Below, in pieces: positions 41,248 to 58,239 of a stretch of DNA of 59,086 nucleotides. The notes below the pieces were generated by a model, which saw only the letters and a list, made by a program, of their open reading frames with translations, made no database searches and was not told the DNA's origin. The stretch's first letter is position 1; every line of letters begins with the position of its first letter. Both the position numbers and the translations under genes were made by a program. The stretch spans positions 1 through 59,086 of the IMG/VR virus record IMGVR_UViG_3300034100_000010; one strand, given 5' to 3'. The stretch is from a virus (Duplodnaviria > Caudoviricetes).

Positions 41248-41298
41248 TTTGTTCTCTCCTATTTATGTAACCTATTATACGTTTGTTACTGCCATGAG

Positions 41299-43171: not shown

Positions 43172-43174
43172 AAT

Positions 43175-44933: not shown

Positions 44934-45046
44934 TTCGTTTCTCTAATTTGGAAAACTATTGTGTACTCCAAATTATAGGCCGTGTCAACCCTTAATATTA
45001 ATACTCGGCTTCGTGTATGTTTTAGATTTACCACCTAAATACCGCA

Positions 45047-45274: not shown

Positions 45275-45434
45275 TGGTCAGTGTCATCGTTTGATATTGA
45301 ACCTAATGCGTCACTGATCGCTTGAAGAAGTTCAAAGTTTGTCATTTGGTTTATAGTTTTCTCAACATAACCTTCACCAAGTTCGTGCTTGTATTGTTGG
45401 GCATATAGCCATCCAGTTACTTCCTGAAATAGTG

Positions 45435-45809
45435 TCATTTCTTTAAACTCCTAGATTTATAGCAGGCTTCTTGGGCATTATATTCCTTAATCTGATTAGC
45501 AATGTTCTCGCTAATATCACAACACATGTTCAAGTCTTGAACTGCCATATACAACCCACCACAAGTCTCACACATATACCAAGGTGCTAGAGGTACTTCA
45601 TCACCGTAGATTGACTCCTCGATATAATTACACCGTTCTGTTGTCGGTCTCCAACGTCTGAAGCGTAGAACTTCGGAACCTACAGGTAGTTTAACTCCGC
45701 ACGAACAACATTTGCGGCTACGTTTGGTATCTAGGATGCTGAAATTCTCTGAAGTGTCATAATACCAAGCTGGCGCATCATCGTACTCGCAGTTACATGA
45801 AAGACTCAT
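45435..45809 (-). CDS. Cys-rich zinc-finger hypothetical protein
   Basis: CCSC and CETC motifs. Confidence 0.55.
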   Translation of the reverse strand: MSLSCNCEYDDAPAWYYDTSENFSILDTKRSRKCCSCGVKLPVGSEVLRFRRWRPTTERCNYIEESIYGDEVPLAPWYMCETCGGLYMAVQDLNMCCDISENIANQIKEYNAQEACYKSRSLKK

Positions 45810-45988
45810 GATTGCATAACCTCATGCGCCAGTCGTTCTAGTTCAGCAGCCTCACGAAAAAACTCAGTATCTGTATAAGCCATACTCTGACCGAGCGATT
45901 CGCGTATCATATTTTCAGCTTTCATGCCCTCTATACGAGCATTACACATTGAAATAAGTGCAAAGTACCTTACAGTATTGTTATCCAT
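45806..45988 (-). CDS. Hypothetical protein
   Basis: Translationally coupled on both sides. Confidence 0.5.
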   Translation of the reverse strand: MDNNTVRYFALISMCNARIEGMKAENMIRESLGQSMAYTDTEFFREAAELERLAHEVMQS

Positions 45989-46884
45989 TACATGTCCCCC
46001 TCAAACCGTTGTCCAAGCGATACAGGAAATCTAGGTTTGTCTTTAACTCCGCATTCCTGAAACTTATACTTCCAAGTCACACCAACTAATTCTTCACGAC
46101 TATTCCAGATGGCTTTACGCTGTTCGTCAGTAAACCCAGTACCAATTTTGAACGGTTCTTCAAACGCAGGGTCTTTCACGATTAGCGATCCCAGCGTATC
46201 CATAGGCATCATGTTCTCTTGGTGGCTGCTGCGTTCTGTATGACCTAGTGCATTCTTAGTGGCTTCGTTGGCGTTGTGCATACGCTCTTCAAAGCCTATA
46301 ATTCTGCACTCAGAATCTTTGAAGCGTTTGATTTTTAACAGAATCTGATCGTTCGCTGTACTTCTGCCGTGCTTATAAACACCTTCTGTACAGCGCGTCA
46401 TCACTCCTTCGTAACCTTTTGAAACATATTTTGATTCCCACCGATCTAGCTGTTCTAACCCTTCTATAAGCGCTTGGTCTACAAATCGAACAAACTCAGG
46501 GTAATCTACCACAAACGTACCTAAATTGACATTATATACCCAACGATTTTCATAAGTGCCTTCAGCAATCCTATCAAACACATGGTACTGAAACTCAGGC
46601 GCACCATCAAACGACATTACAGCACTTGAAGTTTTATTAAAACAGTCCGAAGCTGTTGGCGAACCTACGATCAACTCACCGTCAAACCCTTCCAGAATAT
46701 CAGCGTGGGCTTCCAAAATCTCCCTGATATACTTGTTAGGGATTGGCTTCAGGTTGCGTGTAACAGCCTTTCCGTTTAGGATAAGTGTGCGAATTCCATC
46801 TAGTTTTGGGCTCAAGTATAGTGGGAATCTGAGTTTGCTCAGGTCGGCTTCTACTGCTAGAAGTGGTTTGAATGTTTTAGTCAT
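45988..46884 (-). CDS. ATP-dependent DNA ligase
   Basis: KLDGIR, DGEL, FD, EGVM, LLKIK, GTGF, PRFP. Confidence 0.95.
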   Translation of the reverse strand: MTKTFKPLLAVEADLSKLRFPLYLSPKLDGIRTLILNGKAVTRNLKPIPNKYIREILEAHADILEGFDGELIVGSPTASDCFNKTSSAVMSFDGAPEFQYHVFDRIAEGTYENRWVYNVNLGTFVVDYPEFVRFVDQALIEGLEQLDRWESKYVSKGYEGVMTRCTEGVYKHGRSTANDQILLKIKRFKDSECRIIGFEERMHNANEATKNALGHTERSSHQENMMPMDTLGSLIVKDPAFEEPFKIGTGFTDEQRKAIWNSREELVGVTWKYKFQECGVKDKPRFPVSLGQRFEGDM

Positions 46885-47071
46885 TTTGATCTTTCAACTT
46901 TATAAGAAGATCTTTTTTGAGTTCTTGACGGTATATCTTTTTCCAAAGCGTCCGCGATGCTACCTTTTTAGCAGTGTTGTGGAAACGTGCTCCCTTCAGC
47001 GCATACAGCATGAGGTCAGCCTTATCAGGATTTGCTACATCATCGTTTCTAGGAATTCCGAAAGCTCTCAT
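46877..47071 (-). CDS. Small basic hypothetical protein
   Basis: ORF overlapping the ligase start. Confidence 0.5.
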   Translation of the reverse strand: MRAFGIPRNDDVANPDKADLMLYALKGARFHNTAKKVASRTLWKKIYRQELKKDLLIKLKDQND

Positions 47072-47130
47072 TTCATAAATCCTTAGTAAATGTAGGAGTT
47101 ATTTTACAAGGAATCTTTGGTTGTGTCAAT

Positions 47131-47805
47131 CTATTTAAACGGTTTGTATGAGGGGCAGTTCTTAGCGCTGCACCAACCTTGGCAGAGGCCGCTCTTGGTC
47201 ATCTTGAACTCTTCTGTTGCTACAGCCTCTTCAATACGCTCAATTTTGCTCAAGATGTCTGCTTCAAGGTCTGCAACTTGTTCGCGCTTATATGTTCGTT
47301 TTGATTCTGGTCCACGAGTCTTCAACCACACTAAACCTGTGTCAATCCGTTCAAGTTCTGGATGTTGTTTGAAATGAAGCAATGAAAACATATCCATCTC
47401 TAGTTTGTATTTTGACGGATCGACTTTTCCGGCAAATTTCCAGTCCTTGATGATAACCCTCGGTTCTGTTGGATGGAAGATCGTCAAATCCGATTTCCCC
47501 TTCAACCAAGCTAAACGGTCAGACCAGTCTATAGGTTCCCAACCTTCCTTGAAACTAATGGGGTATTCAGTGATAACTTTACCTTCAGCAGCCTTGACAG
47601 CGGTTACAATTGGGCGCAAGAACTCGTAACGGCCTGAGAAATCCCTAGTGCCTTTTACGGCACCGTCGATAAAATCGTGCATCTCGGACCCATAGGCCGC
47701 TGCTTCGGACTGCTCATATTTAACGTCTTTAAGGATGTACTGGTGGTAGTATGCCATAGGACATTGTAGAAATTTTGAGATGCTGCTATAGGAGTAAGCC
47801 ATCAA
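47131..47805 (-). CDS. PD-(D/E)xK RecB/Cas4-like exonuclease
   Basis: SYSSISKFLQCP, GKSD, DWK, LCQGWC..C. Confidence 0.85.
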   Translation of the reverse strand: MMAYSYSSISKFLQCPMAYYHQYILKDVKYEQSEAAAYGSEMHDFIDGAVKGTRDFSGRYEFLRPIVTAVKAAEGKVITEYPISFKEGWEPIDWSDRLAWLKGKSDLTIFHPTEPRVIIKDWKFAGKVDPSKYKLEMDMFSLLHFKQHPELERIDTGLVWLKTRGPESKRTYKREQVADLEADILSKIERIEEAVATEEFKMTKSGLCQGWCSAKNCPSYKPFK

Positions 47806-47984
47806 ATCTCAACTTTAATGTTGCAAGAAACGACCCTATTAATACGCTCACCAATAAACACATCGGTGTTAACGTCAACTCTGTTTATAGAAACTTTATA
47901 TTCATCCTGAAATTTCCTAAGTAATTCCAGAATATCGAGTTCAAGGCGAAATTTAGTGTCTTTAAATTCTTCTAGTGTACTCAT
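47802..47984 (-). CDS. Hypothetical protein
   Basis: Coupled small ORF. Confidence 0.5.
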   Translation of the reverse strand: MSTLEEFKDTKFRLELDILELLRKFQDEYKVSINRVDVNTDVFIGERINRVVSCNIKVEI

Positions 47985-48143
47985 GGTAGTGTCCTGTCGT
48001 GCCAGTAATAAGGGTCAAAATAATCGTCAGGGTCTTCGGAATCTTCATCCCAAACTTGAAGTGTGCCATATTCGGAAGCCATAATAACAACCCCATGTAG
48101 TTTACAAAGGTCTGTAAGAGCAATCCTAAAATCGTCGTATTTC

Positions 48144-48326
48144 TTAGTCATAGTAAACCTCCAATCTTTCCCAAGCCCACTGCATCACACACGCTTCTCG
48201 ATCTTCTTCACGCATAGTTTCCAACTCACCCTCGTCAAGTCCTAAATCTTTAACGGTGTCAACCTCTTGCTTCCTACAGGAGTGTATGTTTGCACCACTA
48301 TTGCAGTAGAACGTAACTTTAGCCAT
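48144..48326 (-). CDS. Hypothetical protein
   Basis: AGGAG RBS; 60-aa ORF. Confidence 0.55.
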   Translation of the reverse strand: MAKVTFYCNSGANIHSCRKQEVDTVKDLGLDEGELETMREEDREACVMQWAWERLEVYYD

Positions 48327-48337
48327 TTTTGTTTCTC

Positions 48338-48763
48338 CTAAACACCAGAACTCCCGAAACCCCCGTCACCGCGATCTGTTTCCGTAAGTTCAGAAACTTC
48401 TTCAAATTGTACGGAAAAATGCTGTTGAATTACCAACTGCCCAATCCGCATACCCTTCTCAACCAGGAAACGGTCATCTTGATTACTCGTAAGCAACACA
48501 CAAATTTCCCCAATGTAGTCCGAATCCACGATTCCAGGCGCGTTGTATACCGTTACGCCTTTTACAGCAAGTCCTGAACGTGGGCAGACAGCACCGAAAT
48601 ATCCTTCAGGTAGTTGAATAGCGATGCCTGTATGAACCTTCAACACTTGGTCTTTGTGGAGGTGTGCGTTCTCTAATGCATAAAGATCATAACCGGCGGC
48701 ATGTTCTGAACCTTGTGTTGGTGTGATAGCATCTTCGTGTAACTTTTTGAATTTTAGGATCAT
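48338..48763 (-). CDS. dut: dUTPase
   Basis: AGYDL, PRSG, GIVDSDY.GE, RIGQL, RGDGGFGSSG. Confidence 0.95.
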   Translation of the reverse strand: MILKFKKLHEDAITPTQGSEHAAGYDLYALENAHLHKDQVLKVHTGIAIQLPEGYFGAVCPRSGLAVKGVTVYNAPGIVDSDYIGEICVLLTSNQDDRFLVEKGMRIGQLVIQQHFSVQFEEVSELTETDRGDGGFGSSGV

Positions 48764-49107
48764 GATGATCTCATCTGTTTAAGCAACAATTCAAGACAAA
48801 CAATATTAGCAGACTTGACAGTATTCAACAACCAATACAGATATTCTCGAATACTCAAACCGCTATCAATAAATTCTTCAAGTGTGAATATGATAAATTC
48901 GCGTTTCTGAAATCTATCATAAGCCAATTGCTGACCAACAACCTTGTTGAAGTTGTCACCATTGCATACAGAAAACGAAGCTGCCACAAGGCGGCTTTCG
49001 TAGTCAATACGAACAAATGCAGTCACACCTTGATCTGACTTTACATGACAGCGCTGGTGGTCATAAGGTCGGTAATAACGGTAAAAGTCAATGTGGTTTG
49101 TGCTCAT
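48760..49107 (-). CDS. Hypothetical phage protein
   Basis: SVCNGDNFNKVVG..LA.DR pattern; RBS. Confidence 0.55.
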   Translation of the reverse strand: MSTNHIDFYRYYRPYDHQRCHVKSDQGVTAFVRIDYESRLVAASFSVCNGDNFNKVVGQQLAYDRFQKREFIIFTLEEFIDSGLSIREYLYWLLNTVKSANIVCLELLLKQMRSS

Positions 49108-49118
49108 TTTAAAAGTCC

Positions 49119-49451
49119 TTATTTATACTCAGTTATAACACGATCAGACCTTGTAACTAAACCATATTCCTGAAGCAAGTCTAACCACATAACATCAGGG
49201 TTTTTCCAATCCGCTGAACGATCTTTAGACCGCTGCCACCAATCATAGTTAATGTCAACTAGGGTTTGTACTAGGTCGTTATTACAGATGCTGTATTCTT
49301 CATCATACCGAGCTACGATAGTACCTTCGTCTACATTAACTTTCACTGTACCTGATTTGTAAAATCCCGAAAGCTCAAAAATAGACCTTGAGTTCTTGGT
49401 TATGAGAATCCCACGTTCTGCAAGGATTCCAAGTTGTTCAATATAGGTCAT
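49119..49451 (-). CDS. Hypothetical phage protein
   Basis: 110-aa ORF containing GFYKSG. Confidence 0.55.
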   Translation of the reverse strand: MTYIEQLGILAERGILITKNSRSIFELSGFYKSGTVKVNVDEGTIVARYDEEYSICNNDLVQTLVDINYDWWQRSKDRSADWKNPDVMWLDLLQEYGLVTRSDRVITEYK

Positions 49452-49573
49452 TTCAAACTGTCCTTAGTGTATGCCTGTGATTCCAAACGAGTCAACCAAG
49501 CAATATGTGTATGTGCTTCAGTACCCCTTGATAGGGTTCGCAAGAAGCGTAGGCGTTCGTAATAGTTACTCAT

Positions 49574-49774
49574 TCAAAGATTCTCCACAATAAATGCAGC
49601 TAAGCGCTTTGCTTCGCAAATACTCAAATTGAAAGAACTCTTTGTCACAGTATTATCATCAGATTTACGTTCAAAATCAAACCCAAACGGTGCTACAGAA
49701 GCACGACTTCCGAAATAAATGTTAAGTTCGCCGCGCCCGATTACATCGTTTGCTATGAGATCAATAGTGTTCAT
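49574..49774 (-). CDS. Hypothetical protein
   Basis: Packed ORF with AGGAG RBS. Confidence 0.5.
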   Translation of the reverse strand: MNTIDLIANDVIGRGELNIYFGSRASVAPFGFDFERKSDDNTVTKSSFNLSICEAKRLAAFIVENL

Positions 49775-50041
49775 TCAAGTCTCCTGTTCGACAATCAGAT
49801 CGTAAATTCCATCAAATGCATACTCTGTGACAAACTTTGGATCAATCTTGACGCCCCAAGGAACTACAAATAGTTCTGTAATATCTACTTCAGCAGGATC
49901 AGCCGGATAACCTGGATCACCATTTGAAAGATACTGGCGCTCTGGACGACCTTTAGTGTAGTCGTATTGTATTACACATTCGACATCTTCACCAAGGTCT
50001 CCGCACTGTAGGAATACTGTGATTTCGCCTTGTTTTGACAT
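49775..50041 (-). CDS. Hypothetical phage protein (GDPGYPADPAEV)
   Basis: Acidic small early-type ORF. Confidence 0.55.
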   Translation of the reverse strand: MSKQGEITVFLQCGDLGEDVECVIQYDYTKGRPERQYLSNGDPGYPADPAEVDITELFVVPWGVKIDPKFVTEYAFDGIYDLIVEQET

Positions 50042-50093
50042 TTTTAGTTCTACTTTTATTTGGCTCAGTAAGAGCTATTATACACCAACTGGT

Positions 50094-50351
50094 TTATATG
50101 TAAACAATATTCTGTAACTCAATGTTCACAGTCTGACAAATATCAGCTTCCAAAATGTCTATGACTTCCACATCATCGGCGTCAAGATACTTGTCAGTCG
50201 GTACGTCATCAAATACACCTTCTTGGAGTACTATGTAGCGTTTAGAGTATGTGTTAGCATTGTAATAAACAACGAACACTTCACCAATATGTTTGGCATA
50301 CCAATAGGATGGTCGTGTTGCTTTAAGGACTTTTACTTGTTTTAGTAGCAT
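50094..50351 (-). CDS. Hypothetical protein
   Basis: AGGAG RBS inside the duplicated leader. Confidence 0.55.
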   Translation of the reverse strand: MLLKQVKVLKATRPSYWYAKHIGEVFVVYYNANTYSKRYIVLQEGVFDDVPTDKYLDADDVEVIDILEADICQTVNIELQNIVYI

Positions 50352-50438
50352 TTTAGTTCTCCTTTTGTTTTACAACTTGAGGACTATTAAATTCGTTGCC
50401 TCTGGCCGGTCTTTAAATAATCATAAACATCTGATAGC

Positions 50439-50678
50439 CTACTCACGATTAAATACCTCGTTTGGCACTTCTATATTCATGCTACCACTCTCAAATTTCA
50501 TGCCGTGTTCTTCGGCCCAAGTGTATGCGTGGTAGAGTTCATAACTGTCATACTGCTGATAGTTGCCATTTGAGTCATAACCGCCAATACAGCCGTCATC
50601 TGATAGGTCATTTACAACTGTAACTGTTACATTACCTTTTGCATCAGTAAGTTTATATAAGTATATCTTTTTGAACAT
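50439..50678 (-). CDS. Hypothetical protein
   Basis: AGGAGG RBS. Confidence 0.55.
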   Translation of the reverse strand: MFKKIYLYKLTDAKGNVTVTVVNDLSDDGCIGGYDSNGNYQQYDSYELYHAYTWAEEHGMKFESGSMNIEVPNEVFNRE

Positions 50679-50708
50679 ATCAACCTCCTACCAGAATAAC
50701 TTCTTGCA

Positions 50709-50870
50709 TTATTGCAAAGTGATAACCGCCTTTAACATTCTTCCACCACCACTCGAAATAGGTTCTACACGCAGTATCTCTTTCGATGTTGTTAGTAAAT
50801 CAAGTTCGTCGTCGGTCAAGAATTCTTTAGATACATGCGTAAGGTTTTCTGATGCTGGCTGAAATATCAT
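50709..50870 (-). CDS. Hypothetical protein
   Basis: ATG at 50870 follows the duplicated leader and promoter TTGACC-17-TAAAAT. Confidence 0.5.
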   Translation of the reverse strand: MIFQPASENLTHVSKEFLTDDELDLLTTSKEILRVEPISSGGGRMLKAVITLQ

Positions 50871-50929
50871 TTTAGTTCTCCTTTTGTTTTGCAACTTGAT
50901 GACTATTTTACATGGTGTTTTTGGTTTGG

Positions 50930-52816
50930 TCAAGCTATTTCTGTGTACCAGACATAATCTTCACCTTGTTGGATCAGATACCCTTTCTCGACTAGCTCTA
51001 ACCAAGCCTTGCAGTTTTTACGTGGTATCTTTGTTGGTTTGGGTCTGCGTACAAGCCCAACATCCATAAGCATGTCATTAGCCTCACGGATGTACCAAGT
51101 ATAGTCAATGTCATCTGGTAATGTTTCGGGGAGCAACATACAGGGTTTAGCGCCTTCTGTGCGAGGTACAGTATTGCCGTTAGACTTGTAATTGATAGTT
51201 CCAGTGGTTTCAGTTGAATAATACCAGCGTATCGCTTTTCCAAGATATGTTTCGTCTTTAACAGCACCACCTTTAACAGTTCTGATACTTAGGAATTGTG
51301 TAATGTCATCACAAGCATAAATCGTATCTTCGATTAACGTACCATTTTTTAGGTATTCTACAAATGCCTTAGAACATATTTCATTGGTTGGTGATTTTGA
51401 CAATCCACCAGTTGCAAAGAACCCTTTGGTTTTAACTTCACCAGAAGGTTTAACTGCACAGTAAGAGTTTACATCCCTTGAATATAACCCAGAGTACCGT
51501 GTTCCCTCCATTTGGAAGCCTGTATGGTTCTCCCAAGACTTAATGATATAGCGCATACGTTGCTCAAAATGTCTATGACATTTCAGAACAATGCCGTCAG
51601 TATTTCCGCTGACTGCTTCAATCCCGTATTTATACAACATCTCAATCAGCATAAGAAGATATAGTTGTCCGCTAATTGTAGTCTGGATAAGTAAGTTTGG
51701 TGCATACAAGATAGAATAGATTGATCCTAGTTTGCCAAATGTCCCATTGATCATAATCTTCATGGAAGTGTCCACTAACTTATCTTTGTTCTTTTTAGCC
51801 AATAGACGTTTTTCTGTAATCCCTCTAAAAACAGTGATAAATTCACTTCCTAATGATTCTGGATATAACCCCAATTGTAAAATAATGTTAGGGTAATATG
51901 CACCAACGTCATTATCCTCAAGGAAGTATTCGTCATTTTCTTGATGATAACACTCATTTTCTTGAGAGTGCAAGCCACCAAGACCCAATTGATAAGTTGT
52001 TGAACCAATTATAACTTTAGGCGGTTCTTGTGAGAATGAGATAACGCCATTAGATTCGGCTGTAATCTCTACATTTTCAAAGAAACGCAAAACATTTTTA
52101 AGTTGCTCTGATTCAAATTTAATGTTGTCTGGCTTCTGATAGAAAAATGTACGTTTTGACACTGAACCTTTACGGACTTTTTGACCTAGAATCTTTTCGA
52201 CTTCTTGTTTGATTACTGCTTCAGCAATCTGTGCATCACTCTTGCTCCGCAAATCCATTCCATATTCTTTAGACATACTTCGACGCAACTCAATGCGATC
52301 TTCAATCGCATGTAACAAGTCAATAGTAGTGTCCAAGTCATTGCGACAATACAAGATTAGTTCTTTGCGTTGTTCTGGTGTTATTAGAGCGTCTGGTTCA
52401 ATAGGAAGGTCTTGGAGGCGCTTGCTGTGTAGGCGACCACCATATAGCTTGAGTGAAATCTTAACCGCTGGCGCTGGCTCTATGAGGTCAATGTGATTCC
52501 ATTTAGGTTGTTCGAGTCTATATTTCTTGTAAAAATTCCAACTTTTAATACCTTCGACAATAATCTCATCTGACGCTCGTTTAAGTTCTTCGTTGGTTGC
52601 ACCAGACATTGCTAGTGCAAGTATAGGCATATCATAGTTCATACCGTTGAAGGTAATGACTTCAGCAGCGTTAAGGACAGTCTTGATGCCGTCAACATCC
52701 AGTGGATGATCTTCATACATTTCAAAATGTTTAGACTTTCCTTGAGCGTTTACGAACATGACAAGTAGATAGTTAGAATAATTTTCTATGTCCATTACTA
52801 CTTGGTTTGGCTTCAT
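50930..52816 (-). CDS. Family B DNA polymerase with 3'-5' exonuclease domain
   Basis: DIE, FNGMNYD, YCRND exonuclease motifs; DVGAYYP, KIMINGTFG, NTDG polymerase motifs. Confidence 0.9.
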   Translation of the reverse strand: MKPNQVVMDIENYSNYLLVMFVNAQGKSKHFEMYEDHPLDVDGIKTVLNAAEVITFNGMNYDMPILALAMSGATNEELKRASDEIIVEGIKSWNFYKKYRLEQPKWNHIDLIEPAPAVKISLKLYGGRLHSKRLQDLPIEPDALITPEQRKELILYCRNDLDTTIDLLHAIEDRIELRRSMSKEYGMDLRSKSDAQIAEAVIKQEVEKILGQKVRKGSVSKRTFFYQKPDNIKFESEQLKNVLRFFENVEITAESNGVISFSQEPPKVIIGSTTYQLGLGGLHSQENECYHQENDEYFLEDNDVGAYYPNIILQLGLYPESLGSEFITVFRGITEKRLLAKKNKDKLVDTSMKIMINGTFGKLGSIYSILYAPNLLIQTTISGQLYLLMLIEMLYKYGIEAVSGNTDGIVLKCHRHFEQRMRYIIKSWENHTGFQMEGTRYSGLYSRDVNSYCAVKPSGEVKTKGFFATGGLSKSPTNEICSKAFVEYLKNGTLIEDTIYACDDITQFLSIRTVKGGAVKDETYLGKAIRWYYSTETTGTINYKSNGNTVPRTEGAKPCMLLPETLPDDIDYTWYIREANDMLMDVGLVRRPKPTKIPRKNCKAWLELVEKGYLIQQGEDYVWYTEIA

Positions 52817-53030
52817 CCCACACCTCAAAAAGAATTATCGCGTGGTATGCCCTACCACGACTAACATATAACGAATGTTTCAAACGGGCGACCCCTAGGG
52901 TGCAATCTTTGGAGTTCTATGGTCGTCTGCTATTGTTATTTATTTCTTTGGAAACTCAAATGCCGCCACTAATAGCTAGGCAGTAAACGAAACAACCACA
53001 ACCAACAGTGTGTAACACTGCTATACCGAC

Positions 53031-54395
53031 TTACAAGGTATTCTTTTCAAACTCTCGGAGGTACTCAATAACAGATTCAGACCAACCGTTGATTCTGAAC
53101 CAAGAATCTTGTGCAATACCACGCTGGTATGATGCTACATTTATTATATAGCCGATACCTTTTGGATTGGGTATACGATCACTCGATTGCTCATCAGTAA
53201 TAACAATAGTACGACAATCTAGTTCTTGTTTGTCGTAAACAGTGTTAAGTGCCTTCCCAAGATATGTACTAGAGTGTGTTTGACTTGAATCAACAGCGTC
53301 CCGTAAAGCAAACCCACGACGAGGCGGTACTTGCACAACATCTTGTGAAAAACTATAAATTTCGACATCTTCACAGATTTCACGCAATAACACAGCCAGA
53401 CCATAAGCAGCATCAAGTCGTTTCATGTCGGATTTACTTGAAATCTGATCATTCATACTTCCAGACACATCAACTAGCAAAATTGTTTTACCACTAAGTT
53501 TTTCAGAACCTTCCAAACACTTTAACATCATAGGTTCAATTACATCCTCCCAAGCAGGGATAGCCCTAGCCGCTGCAATGAACCTGAAAGGGAGAGCACG
53601 CTCAACATGCACACGTTCTGAATATTCCTTAACCCTTTGTTTGTCGATACCACACTCAGACATCAAGCGCATATTTCTGATAAACGCAAGCACACCTAAC
53701 TGGTTCTCATCCATAAGACGTTCAAATGCTTGCTTCTTGTCTGCACCACCAGACAATGCAACTTCCCATGTATCAGGTGTAGCCAGTTCGTTATTCACAA
53801 GTTTGCGATAAAGTTCTTCTGTTTCCGTCAATTCTTTAGTCTTGAAAATCTTGCGTTCTTGGGCAGTCCAACGGGATTCAACATCTTTTGGTTTTGCATG
53901 AACCATAAACATTACATCGCGCAATTTAATAGCTTCGCTGCGATTGTACTTAGCCATCTGATATTCGTTAAATTTCGTGAAAGCGAGCGACAGACCTTTC
54001 TTCACCTGCATAGCAATTGGGCACTTACCATTTTTCCAGTAAATCGCCATGAACTCAGTGATTTCGTCAGGGCGTTGGATGGCCTGAAACAGTGTTTGAG
54101 CGACAAACGGTTTATGTGAGGCGTGTCGTACCATTTCACGCACAAGCAACAAAGGAACGTGACGCAGTTTCATCTTGTTACGCGCTTCTATAGCAATAAT
54201 CTGTACCTTCTCTGGTACGACTTTAGGTACAAGGTAGGCAATACGATCTGCAATAGCTACACCAGATTCATAAAACTGGTCTTCCCAAAGCATACACGCC
54301 ATCACCGAACGGCGTAGTTCCATTTCAGGCGTGATACTGGAAGTCTTAGCGCCTTCGTGGGTGTAAACAGATTCAACAGGTTTGTTAAGTTTCAT
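53031..54395 (-). CDS. Ro60/Rsr-like TROVE-vWA RNA-binding protein
   Basis: TROVE segments (LRRSVMACMLWEDQFYE, KFNEYQMAKY, TWEVALS) and vWA MIDAS DVSGSM...ITDEQ; GGAGA RBS before ATG 54395. Confidence 0.9.
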   Translation of the reverse strand: MKLNKPVESVYTHEGAKTSSITPEMELRRSVMACMLWEDQFYESGVAIADRIAYLVPKVVPEKVQIIAIEARNKMKLRHVPLLLVREMVRHASHKPFVAQTLFQAIQRPDEITEFMAIYWKNGKCPIAMQVKKGLSLAFTKFNEYQMAKYNRSEAIKLRDVMFMVHAKPKDVESRWTAQERKIFKTKELTETEELYRKLVNNELATPDTWEVALSGGADKKQAFERLMDENQLGVLAFIRNMRLMSECGIDKQRVKEYSERVHVERALPFRFIAAARAIPAWEDVIEPMMLKCLEGSEKLSGKTILLVDVSGSMNDQISSKSDMKRLDAAYGLAVLLREICEDVEIYSFSQDVVQVPPRRGFALRDAVDSSQTHSSTYLGKALNTVYDKQELDCRTIVITDEQSSDRIPNPKGIGYIINVASYQRGIAQDSWFRINGWSESVIEYLREFEKNTL

Positions 54396-54406
54396 TACTT
54401 TCTCCA

Positions 54407-54477
54407 AATTTAAGGGAACAAACGCTTACGAGGGTTTATCTCCGTATGATGAACTCGTAAACAACACCACTCAAATC
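54407..54477 (-). ncRNA. Candidate minimal Y RNA, gene-proximal copy
   Basis: 57-nt core 54414-54470, closed by the stem GAUUUGAG/CUUAAAUU; adjacent to the Ro60 RBS. Confidence 0.65.
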
Positions 54478-54480
54478 TTT

Positions 54481-54547
54481 TAGATGGGAACAAACGCTTA
54501 CGAGGGTTTATCTCCGTATGATGAACTCGTAAACAACACCACATCCA
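54481..54547 (-). ncRNA. Candidate minimal Y RNA, promoter-proximal copy
   Basis: Identical 57-nt core 54486-54542, closed by a different stem UGGAUG/CAUCUA; begins at the predicted transcription start. Confidence 0.65.
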
Positions 54548-54555
54548 TAACAAAC

Positions 54556-54584
54556 ATTATAAACGTAAAATACTACTAAGTCAA
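54556..54584 (-). promoter_or_regulatory. Consensus sigma70 promoter for the repeat-Ro60 unit
   Basis: TTGACT (54584-54579), 17 bp, TATAAT (54561-54556). Confidence 0.85.
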
Positions 54585-54603
54585 TACTAAATTTAAAATA
54601 TTA

Positions 54604-54849
54604 TCAGCCTTCTGTATGTACGCTGTCAAATTCCTGCAACGCCAACAGCAATAGTTCTGCCTGATTATAGTCAAGCGACATGAAAATGTCAGGGTGCACC
54701 GCACCATTACCATAAAACTTCACGGTATAGCCATTACCGTTATCAGTTACCTTACACAACTTATCGACACCGGCAACATAACCTGAGTGTTCAGCGGCTT
54801 TGATAATGACATTATTACCTTTACGTTTTACAATATGCTCTCCACTCAT
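54604..54849 (-). CDS. Hypothetical protein
   Basis: ORF in an early gene string; start uncertain. Confidence 0.5.
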   Translation of the reverse strand: MSGEHIVKRKGNNVIIKAAEHSGYVAGVDKLCKVTDNGNGYTVKFYGNGAVHPDIFMSLDYNQAELLLLALQEFDSVHTEG

Positions 54850-55227
54850 TTCTTGCACTCCTCGATAATTTCTAAGCGTAAAATATACCTGACGTGTTCA
54901 GACCAATCCTTGTTGATTGCAAAAGCATCCATTGCTGCAAGTTTGTAGTTAATCATTTTGTTCTTCCTCTGAAATATCTAGTTTACGGGCTTTGACAGCA
55001 GCTACAATTTTCTGAACGATCTGGGTGATGTCTTGCTTCTTTTCTACATTTTCAGCGAGGTATCGGCAAAGTACATAAAATTGGATCATGCTAATTCCAA
55101 TCCTCATTCAAAGTAAATGACTCAATCAATTCGGCATAACTAGAAATTTTAGCCTTAACACGCGCTGACAATTCGTTTTCAGCAATTACAAAGACTTCTT
55201 TGCCGTCTTGGAGGAATTTGTACATTT

Positions 55228-55479
55228 TCATTGATAGCCTTCGCGCATCTTACCAAGCCTGCTATGTTTCCTATGCCAGTCTGCACATTGTCCGCAAAGT
55301 GGTTCTGGTGCTTCATGACGAGCTTTAGACATGATGGTGATAGGTACCCCACAATCCGAACACTCCCAATCACCAGAAACAAACTCAATGTCTTTGAATG
55401 ACTCAAGACGTACTTTATCTAGTGCGTCTTGGTTGCGTTCGTCGTTGTAGTCCTGTAGGTGATCCATTTCGTCAGGCAC
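55228..55479 (-). CDS. TraR/DksA-like C4 zinc-finger protein
   Basis: GGAG then GTG start gives MPDEMDHLQ (DxxD tip), a helix, then CSDCGVPI...AR.EA...LCGQC. Confidence 0.6.
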   Translation of the reverse strand: MPDEMDHLQDYNDERNQDALDKVRLESFKDIEFVSGDWECSDCGVPITIMSKARHEAPEPLCGQCADWHRKHSRLGKMREGYQ

Positions 55480-55647
55480 TTGATAACTCCAAATTTTCAA
55501 AAGTGGTGTTTATTCTACACAAATTATATTTTGTTGTCAATAAATGTGGTGTAAAACTTGTCCAATATCATTTAGCACACCAAAAGTTGGGTCTAATATT
55601 AGTTAGAGGGCTTGTTCTTCGCCCTCGGAAATATTTTCAAAACCCTA

Positions 55648-55675
55648 TTGCACTTACACGGAATCCGTGTATAAT
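55648..55675 (+). promoter_or_regulatory. sigma70 promoter with palindromic operator
   Basis: TTGCAC-16-TATAAT; TACACGGA-A-TCCGTGTA at 55655-55671. Confidence 0.7.
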
Positions 55676-55736
55676 TTGAATCGTAGACAGATCGTTTACA
55701 CCGCACCTCGGGATCGGGGCTACCAGGAGAAACAAA

Positions 55737-55931
55737 ATGATTATCAAAGCAAAAACTGCCCGCCAATTGATCGCCGCCGGAAAAGCAGGGAATGCGTCGT
55801 TTGTTTGGGATGACGGGGTAGACCATCAACTTACGCAACCGAAATTTGTATCCATCGACAGATACGACCTCCAGCGCACAGATCATTTCGAGGCCGATGA
55901 AATCGCAATTAGCGAATGGAAAAATGCCTAA
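55737..55931 (+). CDS. Hypothetical cassette protein
   Basis: AGGAG RBS; directly downstream of the cassette promoter. Confidence 0.65.
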   Translation: MIIKAKTARQLIAAGKAGNASFVWDDGVDHQLTQPKFVSIDRYDLQRTDHFEADEIAISEWKNA

Positions 55932-56053
55932 CCACCCAAACCGCCGCCGAACTGATCCACTCAACCCTGCGCACATGGCAGGATTGGGAGGCCGGTAAAG
56001 CCCGAATGCACCCCGGTCTGTGGGAGTTATTCCGCATAAAATGCGCCCTCTAA
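55924..56053 (+). pseudogene. XRE-type HTH regulator with internal deletion
   Basis: MPNHPNR start is joined out of frame to QTAAELIHSTLRTWQDWEAGKARMHPGLWELFRIK. Confidence 0.65.
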
Positions 56054-56109
56054 CCCTACGGTGCAGGCGACATGGCGCAAACAGCCGCGCCAGGCTCCTG
56101 ACCTCCATC

Positions 56110-56747
56110 TTGGGCGTCAGCGGGTAATACATTCGTGTTCGTCACGTATCGGGCCAATTCCAAGGTCATCCGCCTCGGAACGGCTATACGCCACAAGCTC
56201 GAATGTAACGGTGCTGATTTTTCCAATTGGAACGGAAGACCTACAGCAACCGGTTGCGATGTCCAGCTTGAGTTCGTTTGCAAGTCCAGCCATCTTCTCG
56301 ACGTCGATCTTCATGTTTTTCCTTTCTTCGGTTCGCGCCATCTCGTATATCTGCCCGGTTTCCATGTCAGCCCTAAACCATCGTCCAGTTCCAACAACCT
56401 GCGTTTCCACGGTGTCATCCCGCATGCAGACGGTAATATGTTCCCTCCTTCGGTTTCAAGCACAAGTCCGCTGAACACTTCTTTTACCAACAACCCACCT
56501 TCGCTGTTCACTCCAATTCGCATGCCAGTTTCCTTTCGTTGTAGTTGCATCGTCAAACCAACAGAGAGCGGTATCCGTTAACAACCTCTTCGCTTTGGCT
56601 AATAATCTGCAAGCCAATCTTCTCAGCCATTGCGGAAGCCTTTTTAATGGCGCTTTCTTTCCAGCTCGTCACTACAATGGCATTGTGTCTCATGTATCCC
56701 ATGTTTCCTCCAAAGACGCCAAACACGTCATTTAACTGGACGCGCCG
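56110..56747 (+). mobile_element. Degenerate integron-type cassette 2 with truncated attC-like site
   Basis: Begins TTGGGCGTC; near-complement GACGCCAAAC at 56715-56724 is followed by attC-like ACGTCATTTAACTGGACGCG; contains broken minus-strand ORFs. Confidence 0.45.
56553..56702 (-). pseudogene. Apparently truncated phage protein (MGYMRHNAIVVTSW)
   Basis: GGAGG RBS; ends abruptly after NGYRSLLV. Confidence 0.4.
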
Positions 56748-56769
56748 TAGGTCATGTTGAATAAACATA

Positions 56770-57516
56770 TTATACACCGCCTAACAAAAACTTCAACTCT
56801 TTTAATGCTTTTTTCTCGATCTGCTCCACCCTGGCAGCGGAAATGTTAAAACGCTCACCAAGTTCACGAAGTGGTACAGGGTTATTAGTGAGATGTCTGG
56901 ATTCTAGTATAACCCTTGTGCGCTCATCCAAGGCGGCTACAGCGGCTTTCAGTGCTTCGACTTGTCGTTGTTCGTCACGTTCTTGTAAGGCTTCTTCTGG
57001 ACCTTTGTACGGGCTTGGAAGTTGTAGGATGGTTGTGTCATCATCGATTGATGATTCCTTACCAGCGTAACGTGCTTCGAAGTCCTCTAACTGTGCTTGG
57101 GTTATATTCAAGGCTTCGAGTGTATCCACGTCGCTATTGACTACTTCGCGGTTCCAGAACAGACGTAGTGCTGCCTTGGTGGTGGCAATCTTTACCATCC
57201 GGTAATTCTTTACAACATACTCACCAATATGATACTTGATGTCATATACAGCAAATGCCGATAACCTGATACCCAGGAATGGGTCAAACTTCTGGATAGC
57301 CTTCAGAAGTCCGATGAACCCTTCCTGAACCAGATCATTAACGTCAATACCATAGTTTTTGTAGCGATTGGCAACCTTCATACACAAAGGGATGTGGTGC
57401 ATTGCAAGTTTGTGTGCTGCTTCGATATTGTTGTTTAACTTGTAGTCTTTAGCCAGTTCAAATTCTTGGTCTTCTGTCAGGATTGGGTATTGGTTTGCAA
57501 TCGTACTTAAATACAT
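56770..57516 (-). CDS. RpoH (sigma32)-like RNA polymerase sigma factor
   Basis: Region 1.2 YPILT..QE, region 2 DLVQEGFIGLLKAIQKFDP..G.RLS.FA, RpoH-box-like VKIATTKAALRLFWN, region 4 LRELGERFNISAARVEQIE. Confidence 0.85.
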   Translation of the reverse strand: MYLSTIANQYPILTEDQEFELAKDYKLNNNIEAAHKLAMHHIPLCMKVANRYKNYGIDVNDLVQEGFIGLLKAIQKFDPFLGIRLSAFAVYDIKYHIGEYVVKNYRMVKIATTKAALRLFWNREVVNSDVDTLEALNITQAQLEDFEARYAGKESSIDDDTTILQLPSPYKGPEEALQERDEQRQVEALKAAVAALDERTRVILESRHLTNNPVPLRELGERFNISAARVEQIEKKALKELKFLLGGV

Positions 57517-57517
57517 A

Positions 57518-57781
57518 TTACTTAACCTCAGTTTCAAAACTAAATATTGCTGTACAACAAGTACAGTAAATAACCTTGAATTTCTTACCACCATAGAATT
57601 CTGTAAATGACTGAACATACGCCGCGTCTTTGATTATCTCTGTGTCTTCATTCTTGCAGTATAAGCACATTTCATTTTTGTCGCGGTGTGGGTTGGTGTA
57701 ACCATAAGGAGATTCCCACCGATCATTTGGTATCGTCTTAAATGAAGTTCTTGCTATTTCGTTTTTTGTTAGCGTTCTCAT
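57518..57781 (-). CDS. Zinc-ribbon hypothetical protein
   Basis: CLYC and CTCC motifs. Confidence 0.5.
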   Translation of the reverse strand: MRTLTKNEIARTSFKTIPNDRWESPYGYTNPHRDKNEMCLYCKNEDTEIIKDAAYVQSFTEFYGGKKFKVIYCTCCTAIFSFETEVK

Positions 57782-57867
57782 TTACTTGTCTTTATATACA
57801 ATATACGCAAAAACCCCGAAAATGCAAATTGGGAACACTATATACTTTCCAATAGCCTCTATGATTT

Positions 57868-58239
57868 CTACTGACATTTCAGTTTCTCCAATCGTTTAAG
57901 CTCTGCTTGAGCATAGTAAATGATCTTTTTAATGTCACGAATTTCTGGTGAATGTTTGACCAACCCATAACGATAACACGCTCTGAACACCTCGCCAATT
58001 TGTGCATTCATGTTGCGATGGCTAATCAAATCCTGAAGTTCTTTAGCGCCTTCTGGTAGTTCGTAGTAACCCGCTGTTGAACCGTCTGATTCTTGCTTCA
58101 CAACATCTTGAGGTTTATGGTGTTCTTCGGCAGCAGACTTTTTAATCAAACCTTTGAGTTTCTCAGCAAGTTTTGGTGTTACCACAAACGCTGAGTCAGG
58201 TAATTCGTATTCGTAAGGTTTGTATTGGTGCTCGATCAT
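57868..58239 (-). CDS. DUF3310-like phage protein
   Basis: SDGSTAGYY...DLI...G.VF.ACYR.G...DIKKIIYY pattern. Confidence 0.55.
   Translation of the reverse strand: MIEHQYKPYEYELPDSAFVVTPKLAEKLKGLIKKSAAEEHHKPQDVVKQESDGSTAGYYELPEGAKELQDLISHRNMNAQIGEVFRACYRYGLVKHSPEIRDIKKIIYYAQAELKRLEKLKCQ

What the first reader, a model, noticed from the sequence alone, without database searches (positions are those of the whole stretch)
55602..56747. Two integron-type gene cassettes captured by a phage with no integron integrase in the window
Seen: a visibly GC-richer 1.15-kb island starts at GTTAGAGGGC (55602-55611). Its exact reverse complement GCCCTCTAAC (56045-56054) contains the stop codon of the last + strand gene and opens a ~70-bp imperfect palindrome (TAACCCTACGGTGCAGGCGAC..TGGCGC..GCGCCA..CCTGACCTCCATC-TTGGGC). 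The next unit starts TTGGGCGTC and has a near-complement GACGCCAAAC at 56715, followed by an attC-like left arm that breaks off. Established: an integrated cassette begins with TTRRRY complementary to the RYYYAAC of its own attC, and stop codons often lie in that site. Inference: host IntI inserted cassettes into the phage, or an array fragment was recombined in, and they are now decaying; the G of the second GTT core is absent.
Basis: partly seen in the sequence, partly recalled or inferred. Interest (0 to 1): 0.72.

Follow-up and report, generated by a model that had tools for sequence, protein, structure and literature searches.

The report
Decaying integron cassettes inside a phage
An uncultivated sediment phage carries a decaying piece of a bacterial integron cassette array, and its first cassette is a self-regulated operon of the kind that usually controls anti-CRISPR genes; phage-borne cassettes are already known but rare.

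Summary
55603-56109 is a genuine integron gene cassette. A cassette of the same family sits in a MAG contig (L004) with 8 attC hits on one strand. Homology to the window starts exactly at the G of the left core and runs through the attC, and L004 keeps the G that the window lacks. A solo copy (L015) and a second viral contig (L087) show the same boundaries. Joined as an excised circle, the attC bottom strand folds as expected for an attC. No tyrosine recombinase is in the 59-kb contig. The cargo is a conserved promoter with a 13-bp palindrome, a 64-aa protein of unknown fold, and a homologue of Aca10 (PDB 7XI5, E 1.8e-15) broken by an 86-nt deletion. The second unit (56110-56724) is probably (about 0.65) another cassette with genes on the opposite strand. 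Its start equals two L004 cassette starts, a 9/10 complement lies 615 bp on, and an attC left arm follows and breaks off. One of its genes is frameshifted, and that gene family lies in a cassette array elsewhere (L053). My attC covariance model gave only 11 bits (E 3.2). No empty site was found. Phage-borne attC clusters were published in 2023.

The parts
55547..55601 (.). AT-rich left flank. It holds a second GTTRRRY-like word (GTTGGGT, 55587-55593) and ends in the G of the crossover site.
   Evidence: In one search a roughly 60-nt relative of 55547-55606 (8 differences) lies in another contig of X1, with unlike sequence on both sides; X3 shows the same loose end on the left side only. In X2 a contig matches up to 55604 and then continues with a different cassette-like start. 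No similar stretch was found in any fetched locus.
55602..55611 (+). Left core G|TTAGAGGGC: the cassette 1 start, 10/10 complementary to its own attC R'' region.
   Evidence: Homology to L004 begins at 55602.
55603..56109 (+). Cassette 1 (507 bp, GC 51.9%).
55648..55675 (+). Promoter: TTGCAC (55648-55653), 16 nt, TATAAT (55670-55675), with the palindrome CACGGAATCCGTG (55657-55669) between the hexamers.
   Evidence: The palindrome is present in all 10 loci aligned (exact in 5, with one changed letter in the other 5). The consensus scanner does not flag the promoter because the -35 hexamer matches only 3 of 6. The layout is the same as the Aca10 operator described in PMC9410881.
55737..55931 (+). 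p64: a 64-aa protein of unknown function, in the variable first-gene slot of the operon.
   Evidence: 11 proteins at E<=0.001 in 1.84 billion. AlphaFold pLDDT 92.4. No fold match at E<=0.001 in PDB or BFVD.
55916..56053 (+). Remnant of an Aca10-family helix-turn-helix gene. The ancestral ATG is at 55924 in another frame, and 86 nt are lost between 55939 and 55940.
   Evidence: 7XI5_A, E 1.8e-15.
56048..56115 (+). attC of cassette 1: R'' CTCTAAC, unpaired spacers, an L stem with a bulged base, a 6-bp terminal stem, and an R' core that lacks its G (C-TTGGGC).
56110..56724 (+). Unit 2: a probable second cassette (615 bp, GC 49.4%) with its genes on the minus strand.
56117..56314 (-). Gene D (65 aa). 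Its TGA stop lies inside the cassette-start word TTGGGCGTCA.
56315..56524 (-). Gene B, frameshifted near 56436 (one base lost relative to its family). Its C-terminal part runs on in frame into gene D.
   Evidence: The frameshift region is covered without differences by an X2 contig.
56553..56702 (-). Gene A (49 aa), which matches only the first 49 of 116 positions of phrog_11375.
56715..56745 (+). Truncated attC of unit 2: R''-like GACGCCAAAC (9/10 complement of the unit's start), a spacer, and an L''-like TTTAACTGGAC. No right arm follows.
   Evidence: A covariance-model search of 56700-56752 found nothing.
56769..56796 (-). Promoter-like site (TTGAAG, 16 nt, TATAAT) in phage DNA, pointing into genes A-B-D.
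   Evidence: 10 of 12 matches.

Best explanation
The island is a decaying fragment of an integron cassette array lodged in the genome of an uncultivated, probably virulent, sediment phage. Cassette 1 (55603-56109) is a bona fide cassette (my odds 0.93). It begins at G|TT, and it ends in an attC whose R'' region is the exact complement of its start and holds the stop codon of its last gene. Its cargo is a self-contained operon: a promoter with a 13-bp palindromic operator, a variable first gene (here p64), and an Aca10-family repressor. Unit 2 (56110-56724) is probably the next cassette of the same array (0.65), with genes on the opposite strand, as in several L004 cassettes. Inferred history: during infection of a host that carries an integron, IntI joined a folded attC bottom strand to a G|TT site of the phage (0.6). 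Otherwise an array fragment entered by illegitimate recombination. Afterwards the elements needed for mobility and regulation eroded. The G of the R' core of attC1 was lost, so the AAC cleavage triplet of the bottom strand is gone. The right half of attC2 was lost. The repressor gene lost 86 nt. Gene B lost one base. The cassettes are therefore fixed in place. p64 should be transcribed constitutively from its own, now unrepressed, promoter. A-B-D should be read from a phage promoter at the end of the sigma-factor gene. What p64 does is unknown. By its position in an Aca10-type operon, an anti-defence role is the leading guess (about 0.35).
For: Shown: (1) Local blastn of the island against L004: 55602-55740 matches L004 931-1072 (83.6% of 146), and 55941-56119 matches L004 1401-1580 (87.8% of 180). 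In L004 the unit is preceded by another attC ending in GTT and is followed by GTT with the G intact. (2) L004 has 8 covariance-model hits on one strand in 4.4 kb. The one homologous to the window's site was held out of the model and scores 26.2 bits (E 0.004). The rule that a cassette start complements its own R'' holds at 8-10 of 10 positions in 6 of 7 L004 cassettes; the window gives 10/10 and 9/10. (3) L015, a solo copy in AT-rich DNA, and L087, an IMG/VR contig, show the same start and end rule. (4) Integron integrase (TIGR02249) scores above its cut-off in 3 of 5 genomes that hold relatives of the regulator gene, and in 0 of 14 control genomes. (5) The excised-circle form, joined by coordinates in a script, folds on the bottom strand into a 10-bp R stem, unpaired spacers, an L stem with a bulge and a terminal hairpin, at -20.5 kcal/mol. 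(6) Arm matrices trained on 16 attCs from class-1 plasmids, Thiodictyon and Kovacikia called orientation correctly in 16 of 16 leave-one-out tests. They favour the + strand for attC1 (22.8 against 4.4) and for all 8 L004 sites. (7) The best covariance-model hit in the whole window is 56048-56115. (8) There is no tyrosine recombinase in the window. Phage identity rests on DNA polymerase, primase/helicase, exonuclease, RNA ligase and tail protein matches. (9) Contigs of a second run span both junctions, the missing G and the frameshift with 0 differences. (10) Unit 2: its first 10 nt equal the starts of 2 of 8 L004 cassettes. A B-family gene lies in a cassette array in L053. L004 holds a C5 methylase gene on the strand opposite to its attCs. 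(11) The regulator matches 7XI5_A at E 1.8e-15 for the window remnant and 4.3e-21 for the full-length L004 form. 7XI5 is Aca10.
Against: The covariance model I built scores the window's attC at only 11 bits (E 3.2). That is the top of 6 hits at E<=10 and is not significant by itself. As found, the bottom strand folds no better than shuffles (z -0.31). I had no IntegronFinder or HattCI model. No related phage and no empty site were found. L004 is a 4.4-kb contig binned into a MAG, so its bacterial origin is not certain. Against unit 2: in 44 of 45 metagenome loci the B family lies among phage-like genes with no covariance-model hit. Gene A matches a phage family. Genes B and D were not found in 401 genomes of L004's phylum or in the 5 MAGs. 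The attC2 remnant gives no covariance-model hit, and its matrix score of 11.2 bits is within the range of shuffled maxima. A 600-bp GC of 49% is about 2.8 SD above the mean but is exceeded elsewhere in the contig (52.3%). Nothing shows what p64 does.
Confidence: 0.8

Rival explanations
1. Only cassette 1 is foreign. Unit 2 (genes A, B, D) is native phage DNA, and the single cassette was inserted next to it. The cassette-like words at 56110 and 56715 are then target sequence or coincidence.
For: Genes A, B and D run in the same direction as the flanking phage genes and sit directly downstream of the sigma-factor gene and its promoter-like site. Gene A matches phrog_11375. In 44 of 45 loci the B family lies among phage-like genes with no attC hit. 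No unit-2 gene was found in the MAGs or in 401 genomes. The attC2 remnant gives no covariance-model hit.
Against: The first 10 nt of unit 2 are identical to 2 of 8 cassette starts in L004. The only match with at most 1 mismatch to their complement on the + strand of the 59-kb window lies 615 bp on, inside the L004 cassette size range of 304-831 bp. It is followed at canonical spacing by an L''-like arm that ranks third of all positions. The genes fill the interval exactly, with gene D's stop inside the start word. GC is 49.4%. A B-family gene is cassette-borne in L053.
Confidence: 0.25
2. The left flank 55547-55606 is itself a recombination site (attI-like, or a reused attG-type hot spot). In that case either the phage took up the attI-proximal part of an integron, or this phage site repeatedly receives different cassettes.
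For: In one search a roughly 60-nt relative of 55547-55606 occurs in another contig of X1 with unlike sequence on both sides; X3 shows the same left-side loose end. After GTTAG the X1 contig continues with GC-rich sequence that weakly resembles the start of the cassette 1 family. In X2 a contig matches up to 55604 (the GTT) and continues with a word that equals an L004 cassette start over its first 11 nt. The flank holds a second GTTRRRY word 15 nt upstream of the crossover core.
Against: Only 30 nt of each loose end can be seen, and the matched lengths and identities for X2 are not listed. No integrase lies beside the flank. No similar stretch exists in the fetched integrase loci. The other contigs may simply be diverged relatives of the phage that inherited the insertion. 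Two exact-word scans of IMG/VR found nothing.
Confidence: 0.12
3. The island is an ordinary phage moron (a regulator operon with a hairpin terminator) gained by illegitimate recombination, and the likeness to an attC is chance.
For: The same promoter-operator-regulator module also exists without any attC in L005-L010 and L012 and on plasmids and phages. 10-bp inverted repeats are common in this contig. The covariance-model score is weak.
Against: The same unit sits between attC sites in an 8-site array, with boundaries at the same cores. Orientation and fold match attC sites from unrelated integrons.
Confidence: 0.03
4. The contig is an assembly chimera joining phage and bacterial integron reads.
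For: It is a metagenome assembly, with a GC step at the left junction.
Against: Logan contigs of three runs cover the junctions with 0 differences. X1 has one 4,682-nt contig across 54513-58000. X2 has 55558-55836, 56009-56361 and 56356-56907. X3 has 55507-55657 and 56594-56999. X1 may be the source sample, and the runs may belong to one campaign.
Confidence: 0.02

Closest known systems
Clusters of attC sites lacking an integrase (CALIN) in phage genomes (Qi et al. 2023, PMC9892861; I read the abstract and sections 2.1 and 3.4, plus word-search passages from sections 1, 3.1 and 3.2)
   Same: Cassettes with attC sites in a phage that has no integron integrase. That paper also notes GTTRRRY words at the boundaries. 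It found integron parts in 21 phages out of 10,705 genomes screened, 17 of them CALINs, some in virulent phages.
   Different: Here the sites are damaged: one lacks the G of its core and one is cut in half. The paper's criterion (two sites of at least 20 bits) would probably miss this island. The phage is an uncultivated metagenome contig. A cassette of the same family is identified in an array elsewhere. The cargo is an Aca10-type operon, not a methyltransferase.
Cassette insertion at non-classical genomic (attG) sites (Loot et al. preprint 10.1101/2022.09.11.507474; I read passages found by word search)
   Same: Insertion outside attI and attC at a G|WT word. The left junction here is G|TT. 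The preprint notes that folded attC sites of such inserted cassettes are easily deleted by replication slippage, leaving 'domesticated' cassettes, which fits the eroded sites here.
   Different: That work was done in E. coli chromosomes with IntI1-3. Here the target is phage DNA and the event is inferred, not observed. The right junction is not a clean attC-G|TT.
acr-aca10 operon of Pseudomonas citronellolis (Lee et al. 2022, PMC9410881; I read passages found by word search; structure 7XI5)
   Same: The second gene is a close homologue of Aca10 (E 4.3e-21 for the full-length L004 form, 1.8e-15 for the window remnant). Small variable genes lie upstream. A strong promoter has an inverted repeat between the -35 and -10 hexamers.
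   Different: The operator sequence differs (a 13-bp palindrome here, a 21-bp one there). No first gene here is a known anti-CRISPR. The window's copy of the regulator is broken. The operon is packaged as an integron cassette; in 2 library searches I found no paper that links the two.
Toxin-antitoxin cassettes of chromosomal integrons (from my own knowledge)
   Same: Two-gene cassettes with their own promoter, and an HTH second gene with weak likeness to HigA-2 and MqsA (E 0.02-0.5; TIGR03830 at 26.5 bits against a cut-off of 61.8).
   Different: No toxin family matches any of the first genes tested. By eye, several of them (L006, L015) are rich in acidic residues, which is unlike typical toxins; I did not compute this.

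Membership tests
Integron gene cassette / attC site | Inverse core R'' (RYYYAAC) at the 5' end of the site, often overlapping the stop codon | tested here: met
   CTCTAAC at 56048-56054, with the TAA stop at 56051-56053. The first letter is C, not R; the L004 and L015 homologues are the same.
Integron gene cassette / attC site | Core R' (G|TTRRRY) at the 3' end | tested here: not met
   The window reads C-TTGGGC: TTRRRY is present but the G is absent. The same is seen in a second run. The L004 homologue has CGTTGTGC. The site as found therefore fails a defining feature and is best called a damaged attC.
Integron gene cassette / attC site | The cassette starts with TTRRRY complementary to the R'' of its own attC | tested here: met
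   10/10 for cassette 1 and 9/10 for unit 2. As a control, 6 of 7 L004 cassettes give 8-10 of 10.
Integron gene cassette / attC site | The bottom strand folds into an R stem, unpaired central spacers, an L stem with an extrahelical base and a variable terminal hairpin | tested here: met
   Met in the excised-circle form (-20.5 kcal/mol). As found, the R stem cannot form and the fold is no better than shuffles (z -0.31). The bulged base is C on the bottom strand, where I recall G as the usual letter.
Integron gene cassette / attC site | Significant score with an attC covariance model | tested here: inconclusive
   Own model R1 (20 sites, 18 pairs): 11 bits, E 3.2, the best hit in the window. 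The intact L004 homologue, held out of the model, scores 26.2 bits (E 0.004); the held-out aadA16 site scores 40.8 bits. The IntegronFinder and HattCI models were not available.
Integron gene cassette / attC site | The same unit occurs in a cassette array between attC sites | tested here: met
   L004: 8 sites on one strand, with the unit at 932-1570.
Complete integron | An intI gene with an adjacent attI | tested here: not met
   No match to TIGR02249 or PF00589 in the 59-kb contig at E<=1. The contig is estimated 61% complete.
CALIN (at least two attC sites, no integrase) | Two recognisable attC sites within a few kb | tested here: inconclusive
   One damaged site and one half site. Neither reaches significance with R1.
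Aca10 family regulator | Sequence homology to Aca10 over the HTH and the dimer region | tested here: met
   7XI5_A: E 1.8e-15 for window residues 6-44 and E 4.3e-21 for L004 residues 14-70. 7XI5 is identified as Aca10 in PMC9410881. The window copy lacks the residues N-terminal of helix 2.
acr-aca operon | The upstream gene inhibits a CRISPR-Cas or other defence system | not testable with these tools
   p64 has no match in Pfam, PHROGs or NCBIfam and no fold match. No anti-CRISPR library was on hand.
acr-aca operon | An inverted repeat within the promoter, bound by the Aca protein | tested here: inconclusive
   The palindrome lies between the -35 and -10 hexamers in all 10 loci aligned (exact in 5, one changed letter in 5). 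Binding was not tested.
Type II toxin-antitoxin cassette | A first gene that belongs to a toxin family | tested here: not met
   0 toxin families matched among the window's p64 and 8 first genes from relatives in Pfam at E<=0.1. The only hit was DUF7699 in L005. NCBIfam (5 of the 8 and p64) and PHROGs (10 first genes, 5 of them the same) likewise named none.

The most novel reading that the evidence does not exclude
Integrons circulate anti-defence operons as well as defence genes, and phages draw on that pool. Cassette 1 would be an Aca10-controlled anti-CRISPR (or other anti-defence) operon packaged as an integron cassette. Its first-gene slot is swapped between copies: 4 different first genes in the 4 cassette-form copies, and a fifth seen at the same promoter in run X4. 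A virulent phage would have taken it up through a G|TT site that, judging from loose contig ends in the same sediments, also carries other cassette starts. That would make the site a phage-borne cassette docking site that works without a phage integrase.
Probability: 0.2. Interest if true: 0.8.

Novelty: new member of a known kind. Interest (0 to 1): 0.55.

Why it matters
The island shows, with a matching cassette in an array elsewhere, that a phage without an integrase can pick up integron cassettes and then fix them in place by losing the recombination sites. Standard attC screens would miss such worn copies, so published counts of phage-borne cassettes (21 phages out of 10,705 genomes screened) may be underestimates. 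The cargo links two fields. An Aca10-type operon, the architecture used to find anti-CRISPR genes, is here a mobile integron cassette. It occurs in a cassette array, as a solo insertion and in two viral contigs. That yields a short list of small first-slot proteins (p64 and its counterparts) to test for anti-defence activity.

Tried and rejected
- Related phages or an empty site. Nothing came from blastn of 55400-56900 or megablast of 40000-55600 against 50,697 phage records. The sigma factor gave one IMG/VR locus at 29% identity. Two exact-word scans of IMG/VR, one of a loose-end word and one of the left flank, found nothing.
- Rfam on 54000-58000 gave 2 chance-level hits and nothing relevant.
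- My first attC finder demanded R''/R' complementarity, which integrated arrays do not keep. The second demanded GTT and so missed the window's site.
- A second, fully independent covariance model was dropped because MAFFT misaligned the 3' ends. Arm matrices in a script replaced it.
- A covariance-model search cut at 56752, meant to allow a truncated hit, found nothing.
- Genes B and D were not found with these queries in 5 MAGs or in 401 genomes of L004's phylum. Genes B and m102 were not found in IMG/VR.
- Fold search of p64 gave no match at E<=0.001 in PDB or BFVD. A profile search of PDB sequences gave only a short repeat match.
- Run X3 has no contig over 55658-56593, and X4 covers only parts of cassette 1. 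Such gaps at depth 2-3 prove nothing.
- A TA reading of cassette 1 was considered and ranked below the Aca reading.
- Earlier findings were not open.
- Supplementary tables of Qi et al., which hold the CALIN boundaries, could not be seen and may contain similar worn sites.
Full report
**What the window is.** The window is a whole IMG/VR record: linear, 59,086 bp, estimated 61% complete. It is a phage. PHROG matches include DNA polymerase (E 6e-195), primase/helicase, helicases, exonuclease, RNA ligase, a minor tail protein and HNH endonucleases. Next to the island lie a sigma factor, a DksA-like zinc-finger protein and a Ro60/TROVE protein. No tyrosine recombinase matches at E<=1 (PF00589, TIGR02249). 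It has no near relative among 50,697 phage records. The sigma factor gave only one distant IMG/VR relative, at 29% identity.

**The observation.**
- The island has 50.7% GC against 41.9% for the contig. It is the richest 1146-bp stretch; the maximum of 5,566 windows outside it is 49.1%.
- The exact 10-bp inverted repeat is not remarkable on its own. The contig holds 112 such pairs lying 50-1200 bp apart.
- It becomes meaningful through position and comparison, set out below.

**Cassette 1 is a real cassette.** The small second gene has 172 relatives at E<=0.001. A scan of species genomes gave 17 loci.
- L004 is a 4.4-kb contig of a MAG labelled Omnitrophota. Similarity to the window starts exactly at the G of the left core: 55602-55740 matches L004 931-1072 (83.6% of 146).
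- Similarity resumes in the second gene and runs through the palindrome to ten bases beyond it: 55941-56119 matches L004 1401-1580 (87.8% of 180).
- In L004 the unit is preceded by another palindromic site ending in GTT. Its own site ends CGTT, with the G that the window lacks.
- L015 is a MAG labelled Epsilonproteobacteria. It holds a single copy with the same start and end rule inside AT-rich DNA, which shows that the site downstream of the second gene travels with the unit.
- L087, a second IMG/VR contig, was found through the operator word. It again has a start complementary to the R'' of its site (11 of 12 by my reading), and its 3' core reads GGT instead of GTT.
- So both viral copies have a damaged core and both MAG copies have an intact one. 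With 2 and 2 this is an anecdote, not a statistic.
- Integron integrase scores above the curated cut-off in 3 of the 5 genomes that hold relatives of the gene, and in 0 of 14 control genomes.

**Is the palindrome an attC?** I had no IntegronFinder, so I collected reference sites.
- Sources were class 1 arrays on plasmids, a Thiodictyon and a Kovacikia integron found with an IntI query, and L004 and L015.
- I built a covariance model from 20 sites, leaving out the L004 site homologous to the window's. On the alignment 75.5% of cells pair, against 61.3% in shuffles (0 of 500 shuffles reach the observed value).
- The model finds 8 sites on one strand of L004. The held-out homologue scores 26.2 bits (E 0.004), and the held-out aadA16 site scores 40.8 bits.
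- In the window, searched with filters off on both strands, the best of 6 hits at E<=10 is 56048-56115 on the + strand. It aligns full length but scores only 11 bits (E 3.2). The alignment shows the missing G breaking the invariant C-G pair. By itself this is not significant.
- As found, the bottom strand folds no better than shuffles (z -0.31). The L004 and L015 sites give z -2.36 and -4.97.
- I joined 56045-56109 to 55602-55611 in a script, which is the form an excised circle would have. The bottom strand then gives a 10-bp R stem, unpaired spacers of 5-6 nt, an L stem with one bulged base and a terminal hairpin (-20.5 kcal/mol).
- Matrices of the two arms, trained on 16 sites that exclude L004 and L015, call orientation correctly in 16 of 16 leave-one-out tests. 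They favour the + strand for the window's site (22.8 against 4.4), for all 8 L004 sites, and for L015 and L053.

**The cargo of cassette 1.**
- *Promoter and operator.* Upstream of the first gene lies TTGCAC, 16 nt, TATAAT, with the palindrome CACGGAATCCGTG between the hexamers. All 10 aligned loci that carry the second gene have the palindrome (exact in 5, with one changed letter in the other 5). This holds whether the locus is a cassette (window, L004, L015) or not (L005-L010, L012). The consensus scanner does not flag the promoter because the -35 hexamer matches only 3 of 6.
- *The regulator.* The second gene is a close homologue of PDB 7XI5 chain A: E 4.3e-21 for the L004 protein and 1.8e-15 for the window's remnant. 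PMC9410881 names 7XI5 as Aca10, the repressor of the acrIC7-acrIC6-aca10 operon of Pseudomonas citronellolis. Aca10 binds an inverted repeat placed between the -35 and -10 hexamers (I read passages found by word search).
- *The variable first slot.* It holds a 64-aa protein in the window, unrelated proteins of 81, 73 and 70 aa in L004, L015 and L087, two genes in L005, and another in L006. In run X4 a contig shares the promoter up to 55740 and then diverges. None of these proteins matches a toxin family or any named family except DUF7699 in L005.
- *p64.* It folds with confidence (pLDDT 92.4, from 9 sequences) into helix, three strands, helix. It has no structural neighbour at E<=0.001 in PDB or BFVD. 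Only 11 proteins in 1.84 billion match it at E<=0.001.
- *Where the regulator family occurs.* It is found in 4 phage records and 92 plasmid records, 65 of them conjugative.
- *Reading.* The architecture is that of an acr-aca operon, but the function of p64 is not shown.

**Decay.**
- Against L004 and L015 the window's regulator gene lacks 86 nt between 55939 and 55940. This shifts the frame: the ancestral start MPNHPNR at 55924 now reads into a stop. It also removes the residues N-terminal of helix 2.
- The R' core has lost its G.
- Gene B of unit 2 has lost one base near 56436, judged against a family of 64-132-aa proteins that are 57-94% identical to its C-terminal part.
- The second attC is cut after its left arm.
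- Contigs of a second run (other sample and study codes) cover 55558-55836, 56009-56361 and 56356-56907 with 0 differences. The tables list no indels for any run. These are therefore features of the phage population, not of one assembly. The runs may belong to one campaign.

**Unit 2.**

For a cassette:
- Its first ten bases equal the starts of 2 of 8 L004 cassettes.
- The only match with at most 1 mismatch to their complement on the + strand of the contig is at 56715. That is 615 bp on, within the L004 cassette size range of 304-831 bp.
- The match is followed, after a 6-7-nt spacer, by TTTAACTGGAC, the canonical L'' shape. A left-arm matrix ranks this place third, and attC1 first, among all positions on both strands.
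- The three genes fill the interval exactly, and gene D's stop lies inside the start word.
- GC is 49.4%.
- L004 carries a C5 methylase gene on the strand opposite to its attCs, so opposite-strand genes are not odd in this array type.
- In L053 a B-family gene lies in a run of short cassettes downstream of two Dam-type methylase genes. One site scores 27.7 bits and I read three more by eye.

Against a cassette:
- The matrix scores are within the range of shuffled maxima, and no covariance-model hit covers the remnant.
- 44 of 45 B-family loci have no attC hit and look like strings of phage genes.
- Gene A matches a phage family.
- Genes B and D were not found in the 5 MAGs or in 401 genomes of L004's phylum.

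I put unit 2 as a cassette at about 0.65.

**How the island got there.**
- The left junction is a clean G|TT. This is the crossover point of IntI and of the GWT words at which cassettes enter genomes outside att sites (preprint 10.1101/2022.09.11.507474, passages read).
- The right end is not clean. Either a two-cassette circle was inserted and its terminal attC later lost its right half, or an array fragment came in by other means. That preprint notes such sites are easily deleted by slippage.

**Open hints from the run contigs.**
- A roughly 60-nt relative of 55547-55606 occurs in another contig of X1 with different sequence on both sides; X3 shows the same loose end on the left side only.
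- In X2 a contig follows the flank up to the GTT and then continues with a word that equals another L004 cassette start.
- I could not recover these contigs. They may be diverged relatives of the phage, or signs that this site takes up different cassettes.

**Novelty.** Integron parts in phages are in print. Qi et al. 2023 found them in 21 phages out of 10,705 genomes screened, including 17 CALINs. They showed that five of six attC sites from virulent phages recombine with attI1 (PMC9892861; I read the abstract and sections 2.1 and 3.4, plus word-search passages from sections 1, 3.1 and 3.2; I did not see the supplements). That paper mentions anti-CRISPR genes only in its introduction.
- A search for Aca10 with integron gave 2 papers. 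In the one I opened, the words occur only in the reference list; the other I did not open.
- A search for anti-CRISPR, attC and integron gave 12 papers. None of the titles or abstract openings listed describes an acr-type cassette.
- The phage-borne cassette is therefore a new member of a known kind. The Aca10-type operon as a cassette is, as far as these searches go, not described.

Noticed in passing
window 54414-54542: Two exact 57-nt direct repeats lie 72 nt apart (54414-54470 and 54486-54542), just upstream of the start of the Ro60/TROVE-vWA gene (53031-54407, minus strand). A contig of run X2 lacks one copy (it skips 72 nt). There is no Rfam match at E<=10, no tRNA, and nothing from Tandem Repeats Finder. 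Bacterial Ro60 genes usually sit beside Y RNAs (recalled), so this could be an unrecognised partner RNA.
   Followed up: partly
L053 1913-3060: This 3.8-kb metagenome contig (33% GC) has two Dam-type N6 methylase genes followed by a run of short cassettes. One attC scores 27.7 bits at 1913-1999, and three more can be read by eye at about 2236-2290, 2748-2800 and 2960-3050. One cassette holds a homologue of the window's gene B.
   Followed up: partly
L087 9860-10420: This IMG/VR contig (62% GC) carries the same cassette family: a start complementary to its R'', the same operator, another first gene, an Aca10-like gene and an attC closely similar by eye to the window's. Its 3' core reads GGT instead of GTT. 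My covariance model did not detect the site.
   Followed up: partly
L004 1-4399: The array has 8 attC hits on the + strand, yet several cassette genes lie on the minus strand: a C5 cytosine methylase (1516-2322) and a methyltransferase-domain protein (2789-3301). The Aca10-type cassette is the one with + strand genes.
   Followed up: partly
window 29661-30800: This is the second GC-rich stretch of the contig (up to 52-53% in 500-600-bp windows). It lies within the structural gene block. No attC-like hit was found there.
   Followed up: no
window 55916-55931: The remnant regulator ORF now starts at an ATG inside the 3' end of p64. I saw no ribosome-binding site before it, so it may not be translated at all.
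   Followed up: no
L089 9215-10300: In this IMG/VR contig the same operator precedes two small genes and an Aca10-like gene. This block lies directly upstream of an ORF that, by eye, looks like a P4-type integrase; I ran no search on it. That would place the module at the edge of an integrated element.
   Followed up: no
phage records: An IntI query at 39-45% identity hits a P1-like phage-plasmid, a Salmonella record, Virus Rctr41k, Shewanella phage M16-3, two Vibrio anguillarum phages and fragments of an Acinetobacter phage. This overlaps with the cases described by Qi et al. 2023.
   Followed up: no
window 55737-55800 (p64 residues 3-18): The N-terminal helix of p64 (the KxARxLIAxGKAG type) matches repeated stretches in very long proteins (4-7 stretches in proteins of 656-4,294 aa) and a PDB chain named CAP REPEAT. 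It may be a common helical repeat word rather than a sign of homology.
   Followed up: no
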